Shown here: positions 28,661 through 32,000 of the stretch, piece after piece
Position numbering within the stretch: the stretch's first letter is position 1
Layout: each line of letters starts with the position of its first letter
Source: Burkholderiales bacterium GJ-E10
GTDB lineage: Bacteria; Pseudomonadota; Gammaproteobacteria; Burkholderiales; Burkholderiaceae_F
Assembly (NCBI GenBank): GCA_000828975.1
Contig: AP014683.1
Coordinates: 355,520 to 387,519 of the forward strand
Length of the DNA: 32,000 nt
Reading direction: 5' to 3'
The notes under the pieces: model-generated
Told to the model about the DNA's origin: nothing
Databases searched by the model: none
The model's input: the letters and a program-made list of their open reading frames with translations, nothing else
Translations under genes and position numbers: made by a program

Positions 28661-31600
28661 TCAGGAGGACACCGGGTCTCCCCGCCCGGTGCGGAAACTC
28701 CGGGCGAGCGCCGCTCCCGTCGGACTGGACTGCGCGGCGATCGAACGCGGCGGCCCGCACGCCACGACGCGGCCTCCGGCGTCGCCGCCCTCCGGCCCCA
28801 GGTCGATGATCCAGTCGGCATGGGCGATCAGGTCCAGATTGTGTTCGACGACGATCACGCTGTTGCCGGCATCGACCAGCCGGTGCAGCGCCTGCAGCAG
28901 CAGGCGCACGTCGGCCATCGCTAGGCCGACGGTGGGTTCGTCGAGCACGTACAGCGTGTGGGACTGCGGGGCGGATCGCGCCTTGCGGTTCGATGCGCCG
29001 ATCTCGCCGCGGGCCTTGGCGAGTTCGGTGACGAGTTTGATCCGCTGCGCCTCGCCTCCGGACAGGGTGGGCGAGGGCTGGCCGAGCGTCAGGTATCCCA
29101 ACCCGACCTGCTGCAACAGGCGCAGGGGATGGGCGATCCGCGGCGTTGCGGCAAAGAACTCCACCGCCTCGTCGACTTCCATCGCCAGGACGTCGCCCAC
29201 GCTCCTGCCGCGCCACAGCACCTCCAGCGTAGCCGGTTCGAAGCGCTTGCCGCCGCAGCGTTCACAGAGAATCTTGACGTCCGGCAGGAAGCTCATCTCG
29301 ATCGTGCGTACGCCCTGGCCTTCGCATTCGGGGCAGCGGCCGCCCGTCGTGTTGAAGGAAAACCGACTCGCGGTGAAACCGCGCATGCGCGCTTCGGTGG
29401 TGTCGGCGAAGCGCTTGCGGATCTCGTCCCAGATGCCGACGTAGGTCGCCGCACAGGAGCGGGGCGTCTTGCCGATCGGGGTCTGGTCGACTTCGAGGAC
29501 GCGGGCGATGTGCTCGCGCCCGTCGATCGCCGTGCACCCGTGCATGGGAGGTCCTTCCCGCCGCAGGTTCGACAGCAGCACGTCCCGCGCCAGCGTCGAC
29601 TTGCCGCTTCCCGACACGCCCGTCACGACCACCAGACGCCCCAGGGGGATGTCGACATCCAGGCCCTGCAGGTTGTGCAGATGGGCGCCGCGCACGCGCA
29701 GCCGCATGGTGTCGGCGTCGACCGTGCGCACCTGATCCGGCGGCTGCATCGCACCGGGCCGCAGATGCGCGCCGGTGACCGACTCGGGACAGGCGATCAG
29801 ATCCTCGACGCGTCCTTGCGCGACGATCCGTCCGCCGCGCGAACCGGCGCCCGGCCCGACGTCGATGCAATGCTCGGCGGCGCGGATCGTTTCCTCGTCG
29901 TGCTCGACCACCACCAGCGTATTGCCGCGCGACTCGAGCTTGCGCAGTGCGCGCAGCAGGATATCGTTGTCGCGGGCGTGGAGGCCGATCGTGGGTTCGT
30001 CGAGCACGTAGCAGACGCCCTGCAGATTGGAGCCCAGTTGCGCGGCGAGGCGGATGCGTTGCGACTCGCCGCCCGAAAGCGTGGGCGCCGCCCGGTCCAG
30101 TGCCAGATACCCCAGACCGACCTCGAGCAGGAAGTCGAGCCGCGATCGGACCTCGGCGGTCGCGTCCCGGGCGATCTCCGCGGCGCGGCCATCGAGCACG
30201 AGCCCGCCGATCCATGTCCGCGCCTGCTCCACGGTCATGGCGCCGACATCGGCGATCGAGCGTCCGTCGAAGCGCACCGCGAGCGACGTGGGATTGAGCC
30301 GCTTGCCATGGCAGGCCGAACAGGGCGTCTCCTCGCCTTCGTACCACTCGTTCCACCAGACCTCTTCGCCGCTGTGCTCGGCGTCGAAGCCGGAGAGTTG
30401 CAGGCCGGTGCCGAAACAGCGTTCGCACCAGCCGTGCTTGGAGTTGTAGGAGAACATCCGCGGATCGGGTTCGGAAAACGACTTGCCGCAACCGGAACAC
30501 GCGCGCTTGGTCGAGAACGTGCGGTGCTCCAGAACGGCGTCCTGCGCGGTGCCGCCGGCGATGGCCTCGCGCAGTGCCGACATCGGCCAGCAGATTTCCA
30601 GCGCGCCGTTGCCGTGCTCCAGGGCCGTGTGCAGCAGGGCGCGCAGATCCGCTTCGCGCTCCGGCTGGACCAGGATGGTACCGACCGGCAGGTCGATCGA
30701 ATGCTCGCGAAACCGGTCCGGCCGCTCCCAGGGACGCGTCGGAACGAAGCGCCCGTCGAGGCGCAGATGGCTATGGCCCTTGCGCGCGGCCCATTGCGCA
30801 AGTTCGGTGTAGACCCCTTTGCGGTGGACGATCAGGGGGGCGAGCACGCCGATCTCGCGGCCGTGCCATTCCCGGGCGATCGTTGCCGTGATCGCATCGA
30901 AGGTCTGCGGCTCCACCGGCAGATTGCAGTCGGGGCAATACTGGGTGCCGAGCTTGACGTAGAGCAGGCGCAGGAAATGGTGCAGTTCGGTCTGCGTCGC
31001 GACCGTGCTCTTGCGCCCCCCGCGGCTGACGCGCTGCTCGATCGAGACCGTCGGGGCGATGCCGTGGATCGCGTCGACGTCCGGGCGCGCCGCCGGCTGG
31101 ACCATCGAGCGCGCGTACGCGTTGAGCGATTCGAGGTAGCGCCGCTGCCCTTCCTGGAACAGGATGTCGAAGGCGAGCGTGGACTTGCCGCTGCCGGAGA
31201 CGCCGGTGATGACGGTGAACGTGTCGCGGGGGATGGCGACGGTGGCGTTGCGGAGATTGTGCTCGCGGGCGCCGACGATCTCGATGGCCTCCCCTCCCGC
31301 GTACGAAATCCTCGCATCGGTACGCTGCACCCCCTCGCCCGCGTACGAAATCCCGGTGTCGGTACGCTGCACCCCCTCGCCCGCGTACGAAATCCCGGTG
31401 TCGGTACGCTGCACCCCCTCGCCCGCGTACGAAATCCCGGCGTCGGTATGCTGCACCCCCTCTCCCGCGTACGAAATCCCGGCGTCGGTATGCTGCACCC
31501 CCTCTCCCGCCTGCGGGAGAGGGCGGGGGTGAGGGTCGGCCCATTGCCGCATCGCCGCTTCATGCTCCCGCAGCGCGCGCCCGGTATGCGACGTCGGGTG

Positions 31601-31993
31601 CGCCGCAATCTCCGCCGGTGTTCCGGCGGCAACGATCTGCCCGCCCGCATCCCCGCCTTCCGGGCCGAGATCGATGACCCAGTCCGATGCGCGGATGACG
31701 TCGAGATTGTGCTCGATCACGATCAGCGAGTGCCCGGCCACCAGCAGCTTGCGCAGGGCGCGCATCAGTCGCGCGATGTCTTCGAAGTGCAGGCCGGTGG
31801 TGGGTTCGTCGAAAAGCAGGAGCGCGCCTTTGGCGGTGCCGCGCTGGCGTTCCGGACTGCTCTTGGCGGTCTCGGCGAGGAAGCCGGCGATCTTCAGGCG
31901 TTGCGCCTCGCCGCCCGAGAGCGTCGGTACGGGCTGGCCGAGGCGCAGATAGTCCAGGCCGACCTCGGCGAGGGGGGCGAGCGCCCGCAGCAC
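28661..31993 (-). CDS. Tandem-fused UvrA-like ABC ATPase (5'-partial; continues beyond the window end)
   Basis: The ORF is open to the window edge. The N-terminal in-window part is the end of one UvrA-like module ([44 protein letters not shown]). A repeat linker follows. Then comes a complete second module: [11 protein letters not shown], 2x [34 protein letters not shown], Zn-finger CxxC pairs and [11 protein letters not shown]. Confidence 0.85.
31296..31505. repeat. Five tandem copies of a 42-bp repeat, in frame inside the UvrA-like gene
   Basis: Units start at 31296, 31338, 31380, 31422 and 31464 (CCCGCGTACGAAATCCCGG(T/C)GTCGGTA(C/T)GCTGCACCCCCTC(G/T)). Copies 2 and 3 are identical to each other, as are copies 4 and 5; copy 1 is diverged. 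On the coding strand they translate to AGEGVQ(H/R)TD(A/T)GISY x5. Confidence 0.95.
31500..31523. repeat. REP-like perfect palindrome abutting the tandem array
   Basis: CCCTCTCCCGC-CT-GCGGGAGAGGG (11-bp arms) is followed by CGGGGGTGAGGG. The right arm motif is reiterated at the junction of every 42-bp unit. Confidence 0.8.
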
Positions 31994-32000
31994 GTCACGG

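What the first reader, a model, noticed from the sequence alone, without database searches (positions are those of the whole stretch)
31296..31523. In-frame 42-bp x5 minisatellite, seeded next to a REP-like palindrome, forming the linker between two UvrA modules
Five head-to-tail 42-bp units encode AGEGVQ(H/R)TD(A/T)GISY x5 without breaking the frame. Copies 2 and 3 are identical to each other, as are copies 4 and 5, indicating stepwise recent duplications. The array abuts the perfect palindrome CCCTCTCCCGC-CT-GCGGGAGAGGG followed by CGGGGGTGAGGG. From memory, that motif class occurs as a dispersed extragenic palindromic repeat in many GC-rich proteobacteria. Each unit reiterates the GCGGGAGAGGGGG arm and contains its own GCGTAC-N15-GTA(C/T)GC inverted repeat. 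So a repetitive-element-like sequence appears to have been captured and amplified inside a coding region, creating a variable-length interdomain linker. It is also a likely hotspot for slippage and a risk for assembly collapse or expansion.
Basis: partly seen in the sequence, partly recalled or inferred. Interest (0 to 1): 0.6.

Follow-up and report, generated by a model that had tools for sequence, protein, structure and literature searches.

The report
Hairpin-seeded repeat in UvrA linker
A short dispersed DNA hairpin landed in frame in the floppy tether between the two halves of a fused double UvrA protein, and one arm plus 27 neighbouring bases has since multiplied to five copies; this is a clean but ordinary example of selfish repeats lengthening a protein linker.

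Summary
Five head-to-tail 42-bp units plus a 15-bp partial unit lie at window 31286-31510, in frame on the minus strand. They sit in the linker between the two UvrA modules of a 1939-aa fused protein and overlap a perfect 11-2-11 palindrome.

- **Dispersed family:** the palindrome has 83 loci in this 3.28-Mb genome. The 42-bp unit occurs only here.
- **Orthologues:** the gene fusion is kept in most related species searched, across the genus and the order. Only the four closest species carry the hairpin piece in this linker, with 1, 2, 3 and 5 units. All other orthologues have unrelated, repeat-free linkers.
- **Copy number:** a deposited protein 99.7% identical to this one has two units instead of five, so copy number varies within the species. 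Short-read collapse is a possible caveat.
- **Origin of the middle unit:** it is a chimera of the outer two, as unequal exchange predicts.
- **Structure:** AlphaFold models the segment as an unstructured tether.

Two corrections apply. The hairpin is not a classical RAYT-type REP: it flanks DUF559 nuclease genes. It is also not strictly extragenic: it sits in frame in at least ten other genes here.

In-frame palindromic repeats and VNTRs are known (RPE, BRE). The scan noted DUF559-bounded hairpins before, on other DNA. Sequencing reads could not be checked.

The parts
31301..31510 (-). Five complete 42-bp units (pattern A A B B C in coding order). Each encodes 14 residues beginning AGEGV.
   Evidence: TRF. 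Unit-by-unit read-out and pairwise differences. Variable sites and the chimeric nature of unit B.
31286..31300 (-). Partial sixth unit (encodes AGGEA). It resembles the first 15 nt of a unit, so the repeated block is bracketed by a short direct repeat.
   Evidence: Read directly from the sequence. The homologous sequence is present in G001.
31500..31535 (.). One copy of the dispersed hairpin element: a perfect palindrome with 11-nt arms and a 2-nt loop (31500-31523), plus the 12-nt 'head' CGGGGGTGAGGG (31524-31535). It is translated as [12 protein letters not shown]. Its left arm is the start of unit 1.
   Evidence: The family has 83 loci with the same head. There are 55 exact copies against 0 for a reversed control.
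31536..31999 (-). C-terminal part of UvrA module 1 (second ABC cassette), ending in the helix [16 protein letters not shown]. The gene continues upstream beyond the window, to window-equivalent position 34480.
   Evidence: Translation. Pfam and NCBIfam UvrA matches. AlphaFold helix at piece residues 138-154.
28661..31285 (-). Complete UvrA module 2. It starts with the strand [11 protein letters not shown] directly after the array and ends at the stop codon at 28661-28663.
   Evidence: The first beta-strand is at piece residues 238-241.

Best explanation
**What it is.** The array is a neutral or nearly neutral, slippage-prone in-frame minisatellite. It grew out of a selfish hairpin element that settled in a permissive protein linker.

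**Proposed sequence of events.**
1. In the common ancestor of the four closest species, one copy of a dispersed GC-rich hairpin element inserted in frame. The element has a 12-nt head and an 11-nt-arm palindrome, and in this genome it bounds DUF559 nuclease genes. It landed in the already existing, hypervariable tether between module 1 and module 2 of a fused double UvrA paralogue. Shown by comparison.
2. The hairpin's 3' arm plus the next 27 bases (42 bp = 14 codons) was then duplicated. The likely mechanism is replication slippage or unequal exchange between the arm and a similar 13-15-nt sequence 42 bp downstream, which survives as the partial sixth unit. Inferred.
3. Once two units existed, the array kept expanding and contracting by unequal exchange:
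   - two units in this species' closest relatives (A C);
   - then a chimeric unit B (5' part of C, 3' part of A);
   - then duplication of A and of B, giving A A B B C here.
   The pattern is shown; the order of events is inferred.

**Why it is tolerated.** The period is a multiple of three and the hairpin frame used encodes Pro/Gly/Glu/Ala-rich peptide. The protein is therefore never broken. The array only lengthens a disordered tether, to 103 residues here against 38-58 in the species without the element, and 55-75 in the three sister species.
For: **Array and frame.**

**The unit is unique to this locus.** No other match even with 8 mismatches, while the hairpin has 83 loci.

**Lineage restriction of the hairpin family (exact copies).**
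- Clade that carries it in this linker: G000 55, G001 44, G010 32, G004 17.
- Other genomes with it: G011 26, G029 17, G009 12.
- All remaining genomes searched have 0-3.
- Reversed control: 0 in every genome.

**Orthologous linkers.**
- G001: hairpin plus 3 units.
- G004: hairpin plus 2 old, diverged units.
- G010: hairpin plus 1 unit.
- The 15 other species whose linker could be read keep the fusion but have unrelated linkers of 38-58 residues.
- About 25 metagenome double UvrAs all differ in this linker.

**Copy-number variation.** A protein 99.7% identical (6 substitutions) has units A and C only. Two proteins at 98.4% also have two units.

**Chimeric middle unit.** Unit B matches C at the two 5' variable sites and matches A at three of the four 3' sites. 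The fourth site carries a private change.

**Such elements seed arrays elsewhere.**
- A 60-bp x 3.4 in-frame array of the same hairpin lies inside a 2754-aa polyketide synthase frame.
- A 59-bp x 4 array lies beside a DUF559 gene in G009.

**Linkers are permissive.**
- The hairpin lies in frame in at least ten other genes with Pfam domains.
- A second copy lies in this same gene.
- An independent pair of related hairpins lies in the same linker of a distant metagenome double UvrA.

**Disorder.** pLDDT is below 50 with no secondary structure across piece residues 161-235, between a confident helix and strand.
Against: - No reads could be laid on the locus, so the count of five rests on the assembly alone.
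- The two-unit relatives come from contigs of 16-78 kb, probably short-read assemblies. Every k-mer of an A-C array exists in the five-unit array up to k = 41, so collapse in those assemblies cannot be excluded.
- The initiating slippage between the arm and the partial unit is inferred from one short direct repeat.
- Neutrality is inferred from variability and predicted disorder, not measured.
- With only six variable sites, the chimera argument is suggestive, not statistical.
Confidence: 0.8

Rival explanations
1. The 14-residue repeat is a selected functional module, for example a binding or modification motif, or a spacer whose length tunes how the two UvrA modules pair. Copy number would then be adaptive.
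For: - The frame is always kept.
- The units keep a common AGEG..(R/H)TD..ISY pattern in G000 and G001.
- The linker in this genome is the longest seen.
Against: - The repeat is absent from all but four closely related species, although the fusion itself is conserved.
- Half of the differences between units change the residue.
- Copy number differs between proteins that are 99.7% identical.
- The segment is predicted to be disordered.
- A frame-keeping period is what survives in any coding array, so it shows nothing on its own.
Confidence: 0.07
2. The array is real, but the copy number in one or more assemblies is an artefact. Either it was over-expanded in this closed genome, or it was collapsed in the relatives, so the apparent 2-versus-5 polymorphism is technical.
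For: - A two-unit path is k-mer-compatible with the five-unit array up to k = 41, and a three-unit path up to k = 48.
- The relatives sit on short contigs.
- Reads could not be examined.
Against: - Three separately deposited proteins of two different strain lineages all have two units, and the 98.4% lineage has its own unit variants.
- G001 has three clearly distinct units that cannot be a collapse product.
- The A A B B C order with a chimeric B is what biology predicts, not what assembler errors produce.
Confidence: 0.08
3. The hairpin did not seed the array. The tandem repeat arose first from native linker sequence and the hairpin later inserted beside it, or the likeness of the unit start to the hairpin arm is coincidence.
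For: G010 has the hairpin with only one non-repeated unit, so the hairpin and the duplication are separable events.
Against: - Every unit begins with the 13-nt hairpin arm, exact in two units and with one mismatch in three.
- No orthologue without the hairpin has the array.
- The same hairpin heads in-frame arrays at two other places.
Confidence: 0.05

Closest known systems
Rickettsia palindromic elements (RPE; Ogata et al. 2000, as reviewed in PMC3184786)
   Same: A family of dispersed palindromic repeats is found inserted in frame inside functional protein-coding genes. It adds a peptide segment without breaking the protein, and the segment is absent from orthologues.
   Different: The sequence, host group and size are unrelated. 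RPEs are about 100-150 bp and are not reported to seed tandem arrays from one arm plus flanking DNA. Homology to RPE was not tested and is not expected.
Betaproteobacterial repeat element (BRE) of Bordetella and Comamonadaceae (Hot et al. 2011, PMC3110155)
   Same: A GC-rich dispersed repeat occurs singly or in tandem, varies in copy number between genomes (VNTR behaviour), and is sometimes located entirely inside coding sequences.
   Different: BRE units are about 90 bp and the whole element is what repeats. Here only the 3' arm plus 27 unique bases repeats. The BRE consensus was not available to me, so relatedness could not be tested.
Classical REP/REPIN elements mobilised by RAYT (Y1) transposases; GTAG/CGTC-tagged REPs (PMC3733652)
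   Same: It is a short GC-rich palindrome in tens of copies, dispersed, with a conserved asymmetric 'head' on one side. It is often found in inverted pairs.
   Different: - It has no GTAG or CGTC tag.
- The only Y1 transposase gene in the genome is not flanked by it.
- The element instead flanks all four DUF559 nuclease genes.
- About a fifth of its copies lie inside genes.
DUF559-bounded hairpin cassettes noted earlier in this scan (e1-705705, an AI note on another genome)
   Same: Translatable hairpin repeats flank a DUF559 (Vsr-like) nuclease gene. The end-pieces multiply in tandem with a 42-bp period and sit in frame inside other proteins.
   Different: That case had the whole cassette inside a gene. 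Here a solo hairpin, without the nuclease gene, lies in the UvrA linker. No published description was found in the library.
Coding-region VNTRs / MIRU-type minisatellites
   Same: It is a head-to-tail array with a period that is a multiple of three, with copy-number differences between close strains. Expansion by slippage or unequal exchange is the mechanism proposed here and is the usual explanation for such arrays.
   Different: The array is seeded by a recognisable mobile hairpin. It lies in a cytoplasmic DNA-repair-type protein, not in a surface protein or an intergenic spacer.

Membership tests
REP sensu stricto (RAYT-mobilised) | Short (20-40 bp) GC-rich palindrome present in many dispersed copies | tested here: met
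   It has 11-nt arms, a 2-5-nt loop and a 12-nt head. There are 83 loci, with 55 exact copies against 0 for a reversed control.
REP sensu stricto (RAYT-mobilised) | A Y1 (RAYT) transposase gene flanked by the same palindromes | tested here: not met
   There is one PF01797 hit, at genome 3223872-3224201. No element copy lies within about 1.6 kb of it.
REP sensu stricto (RAYT-mobilised) | GTAG or CGTC tetranucleotide tag at one end (PMC3733652) | tested here: not met
   The conserved end is CCCTCACCCCCG. CGTC occurs only as one of many loop variants.
REP sensu stricto (RAYT-mobilised) | Essentially extragenic location | tested here: inconclusive
   About 19 of the 83 copies lie in open frames with Pfam domains. 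The rest look intergenic, but the genome has no annotation to check this against.
In-frame intragenic palindromic elements (RPE-like behaviour) | A palindromic repeat family inserted in frame in intact genes and missing from orthologues | tested here: met
   It occurs at two sites in this UvrA gene. It also occurs in an aminotransferase, HypF, DnaX, an exosortase, AroA-Cmk, MalQ, a double ABC ATPase, TerC and a polyketide synthase. Orthologous UvrA linkers lack it.
Coding VNTR / minisatellite | Head-to-tail units, a period that is a multiple of three, and an open frame | tested here: met
   42 bp x 5.1 copies at 95% identity, within a 1939-aa open frame.
Coding VNTR / minisatellite | Copy number differs between closely related strains | tested here: met
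   There are 5 units here, 2 in proteins that are 99.7% and 98.4% identical, and 3 in a 93% relative. Caveat: assembly collapse is possible for k up to 41, and reads were unavailable.
DUF559-bounded hairpin cassette | A DUF559 gene flanked on both sides by the hairpin in inverted orientation | tested here: met
   All four DUF559 genes of G000 are flanked in this way. Of the relatives checked:
- G011, G025 and G002 have a palindrome on both sides of the gene.
- G021 and G009 have palindromes on one side only; in G009 they form a tandem array downstream.
- The palindrome variant changes with the genome.
BRE (Betaproteobacterial repeat element) | Sequence similarity to the ~90-bp BRE consensus | not testable with these tools
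   The consensus is only in a supplementary PDF or figure that is not held, and no BRE sequence is on hand.
UvrA (TIGR00630 / NF001503) | Score above the curated cut-off | tested here: met
   TIGR00630 scores 1855 bits against a cut-off of 730. NF001503 scores 1902 bits against 1147. Matches fall in both modules.
Chlamydia-type double-length UvrA (NF001885) | Score above the curated cut-off of 3054 bits | tested here: not met
   The score is 1069 bits. This is a different fused double UvrA lineage.

The most novel reading that the evidence does not exclude
The hairpin belongs to a DUF559-nuclease-associated mobile element family that has not been described in print. On this reading the family preferentially survives in frame in interdomain linkers. 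In this genome it occurs in at least ten genes and twice in this gene, and related hairpins occur independently in the same UvrA-UvrA linker of a distant lineage. There it seeds in-frame minisatellites, so it would be a general generator of linker-length variation and possibly of gene fusions, for example AroA-Cmk and double ABC ATPases.
Probability: 0.3. Interest if true: 0.55.

Novelty: new member of a known kind. Interest (0 to 1): 0.4.

Why it matters
**What the locus shows.** It is a well-resolved natural example of how a selfish hairpin repeat becomes part of a protein and then drives rapid length change of an interdomain tether. The intermediate states of 1, 2, 3 and 5 units are preserved in sister species and strains.

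**Practical uses.**
- It marks a strain-typing (VNTR) site.
- It marks a place where short-read assemblies may collapse.
- It shows that the tether of the fused double UvrA tolerates 38 to 103 residues, which helps anyone modelling how the two modules pair.

**The wider lead.** The link between this hairpin family and DUF559 nuclease genes is the more original point. If it holds, it gives a handle on a repeat family that appears in translated form in many proteobacterial proteins.

Tried and rejected
- **Unit junction in public collections:** an exact-pattern scan found only G001 among species genomes and nothing in metagenome contigs.
- **Classical REP/RAYT idea:** rejected. The one Y1 transposase gene has no element copy nearby.
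- **Gene conversion between the two colonised linkers of the gene:** the peptide of G010 at site 2 resembles the last unit at site 1. However, DNA downstream of the two sites is only about 70-75% identical within a genome, against 88-96% between orthologous sites. I make no such claim.
- **Hairpin function for the unit's 6-bp inverted repeat:** not supported by folding.
- **Literature:** the arm sequence and 'DUF559 plus palindromic repeat' gave nothing relevant.
- **DNA of the two-unit relatives:** I did not fetch it, because those proteins came from a cluster listing and the contig look-up is not open to them.

Full report
**1. The observation**

Tandem Repeats Finder gives one array at window 31296-31510: period 42, 5.1 copies, 95% matches, score 367. 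It is the only sizeable array in the window. Genome-wide it is among the most perfect of about 25 arrays with a period of at least 12.

The gene lies on the minus strand. In coding order the five units follow the pattern A A B B C. Units 1 and 2 are identical, units 3 and 4 are identical, and unit 5 differs by 4-5 bases. A 15-nt partial unit follows and encodes AGGEA.

The perfect palindrome (11-nt arms, 2-nt loop) lies at 31500-31523 and the 12-nt head at 31524-31535. The left arm of the palindrome is also the start of unit 1, so the array grows directly out of the hairpin.

The unit's own GCGTAC/GTACGC repeat is perfect in three of the five units. It gives no significant extra folding: the RNA z-score is -1.76, and only the palindrome forms a strong stem.

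**2. The gene**

The window lies in a closed 3,276,549-bp genome with 66.3% G+C. The full frame gives a 1939-aa protein made of two complete UvrA modules.

- Both modules score far above the UvrA cut-offs (TIGR00630, 1855 bits).
- The protein is not the Chlamydia-type double UvrA (NF001885, 1069 bits against a cut-off of 3054).
- A separate canonical uvrA, with a 951-aa open frame, exists elsewhere in the genome.
- The fusion is old. Open frames of about 1880-2210 residues covering both modules occur in three other species of the genus and in eight other genera of the order; in several further species the two modules lie adjacent on the contig. The fusion also occurs in many metagenome contigs.

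**3. The hairpin is a dispersed family, but not a classical REP**

With at most one mismatch per arm there are 83 loci. Most carry the same head, CCCTCACCCCCG, on one side. The 42-bp unit has no other copy even with 8 mismatches.

Exact copies of the hairpin are restricted to a lineage:

| Genomes | Exact copies |
|---|---|
| G000 | 55 |
| G001 | 44 |
| G010 | 32 |
| G011 | 26 |
| G004 | 17 |
| G029 | 17 |
| G009 | 12 |
| All other genomes searched | 0-3 |
| Reversed control, every genome | 0 |

The only Y1 transposase gene has no copy of the element nearby, and the element has no GTAG or CGTC tag.

Instead, all four DUF559 genes of this genome are bracketed by inverted copies. In relatives, DUF559 genes are flanked by palindromes of the same superfamily, and the exact variant changes with the genome. 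I found no paper on it.

**4. The element is often inside genes**

A frame and GC3 screen followed by Pfam scans shows in-frame copies in genes with domains on both sides:

- a class-III aminotransferase
- HypF
- DnaX tau (between domains III and V)
- an exosortase-EpsI protein
- an AroA-Cmk frame
- MalQ
- a double ABC ATPase
- a two-hydrolase frame
- a 2754-aa polyketide synthase, with six copies that include a 60-bp x 3.4 in-frame tandem array

There is also a copy in the tail of a TerC protein.

The frames used mostly encode Pro/Gly/Glu/Ala-rich peptide.

The same UvrA gene holds a second copy, in the linker between the two ABC cassettes of module 1. It lies outside the window, at genome 388105. 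G001 and G010 carry it in other forms, and G004 and all more distant relatives lack it.

**5. Comparative history of the array**

Linkers were cut out between conserved anchors:

- G000: hairpin plus 5 units (103 residues).
- G001: hairpin plus 3 distinct units.
- G004: hairpin plus 2 old, diverged units.
- G010: hairpin plus 1 unit and unrelated sequence.
- Eight further species of the genus and seven other genera: 38-58 unrelated residues, with no hairpin and no repeat.

About 25 metagenome double UvrAs also have mutually unrelated linkers. One of them carries an independent pair of related hairpins at the same place.

A search of 5.8 billion proteins with the linker alone found only three clusters. 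Their members show the following:

| Proteins | Identity to this protein | Units |
|---|---|---|
| P0002 (this genome) | 100% | 5 |
| P0006 | 99.7% (6 substitutions) | 2 (A and C) |
| P0007, P0008 | 98.4% | 2 |
| P0003, P0009 | 93% | 3 |
| P0004, P0010 | 90% | 2, diverged |
| P0005, P0011 | 89% | 1 |

Two units is therefore the likely ancestral state of this species, and five is derived.

Unit B matches C at the two 5' variable sites and A at three of the four 3' sites, and has one private change at the fourth. That is the product expected from unequal exchange in an A-C array. Duplication of A and of B then gives A A B B C. This implies at least three length changes in 210 bp, over a divergence that produced only six amino-acid substitutions in about 1900 residues.

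**6. Structure**

AlphaFold2, run on a 22-sequence alignment, models confident flanks: a helix at piece residues 138-154 and a strand at 238-241. Residues 161-235, which are the hairpin peptide plus the array, have pLDDT below 50 and no secondary structure. The array is best read as a disordered tether.

**7. Caveats**

- Every k-mer of a two-unit A-C array is present in the five-unit array up to k = 41. Short-k assemblies of relatives could therefore have collapsed the array.
- Two-unit states in two strain lineages, and three distinct units in G001, argue for real variation, but long reads are needed.
- Neutrality, the initiating slippage between the arm and the partial unit, and the order of expansion steps are inferences.

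**8. Comparison with known systems, and verdict**

In-frame palindromic elements (Rickettsia RPE) and dispersed repeats that form VNTRs and sometimes lie in genes (Bordetella BRE) are documented (PMC3184786, PMC3110155).

This locus is a new, well-resolved member of that kind and not a new kind of system. The DUF559 association and the preference for linkers are the parts worth following up.

Noticed in passing
L001:5106-5131 (genome C1:388105-388130; window-equivalent 32586-32611, just outside the window): A second in-frame copy of the same hairpin lies in the same gene, directly before the first strand of the second ABC cassette of module 1. G001 and G010 carry it in other forms. G004 and all more distant relatives lack it.
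   Followed up: partly
Genome C1: 398815, 889693, 933360, 2134795, 2190209, 2372227, 837276, 2145205, 2243987 (loci L106-L111, L113-L115): In-frame hairpin copies lie inside or between Pfam domains of a class-III aminotransferase, a two-hydrolase frame, exosortase-EpsI, HypF, AroA-Cmk, DnaX tau, MalQ, a double ABC ATPase and TerC. Some of these may be gene fusions made or bridged by the element.
   Followed up: partly
L112 (genome C1:1387143-1395404), array at genome 1391140-1391342: A 2754-aa polyketide synthase frame (KS-AT-DH-ER-KR-ACP) carries six hairpin copies in its interdomain regions. They include a 60-bp x 3.4 in-frame tandem array, which is a second hairpin-based coding minisatellite in this genome.
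   Followed up: partly
Genome C1: 91591-91889, 1266941-1267460, 1526937-1527455, 2849208-2849726 (L117); relatives L116, L118-L121: Each of the four DUF559 (Vsr-like nuclease) genes is bracketed by inverted copies of the hairpin, with shared flanks. Relatives show the same arrangement with genome-specific palindrome variants, and G009 has a 59-bp x 4 hairpin array beside its DUF559 gene. This looks like a small mobile cassette. No paper on it was found.
   Followed up: partly
L028:1501-2130 (metagenome contig Ga0222712_10000199): A distant double UvrA (53% identity over this region) has two related hairpins in opposite orientation in the same inter-module linker. This looks like an independent colonisation of the same site.
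   Followed up: partly
Genome C1:3239552-3240591: A regular array with a period of about 67 bp and roughly 12-15 copies of a conserved ~37-nt repeat separated by variable spacers looks like a CRISPR array.
   Followed up: no
Genome C1: 818740-819381, 2649216-2649761, 2652944-2653409: Three arrays of 144-bp units (3-4.5 copies, 72-84% identity) probably encode 48-residue protein repeats.
   Followed up: no
Genome C1:3223872-3224201: This is the single Y1 (IS200/RAYT-like) transposase gene of the genome. It is not flanked by the hairpin family.
   Followed up: partly
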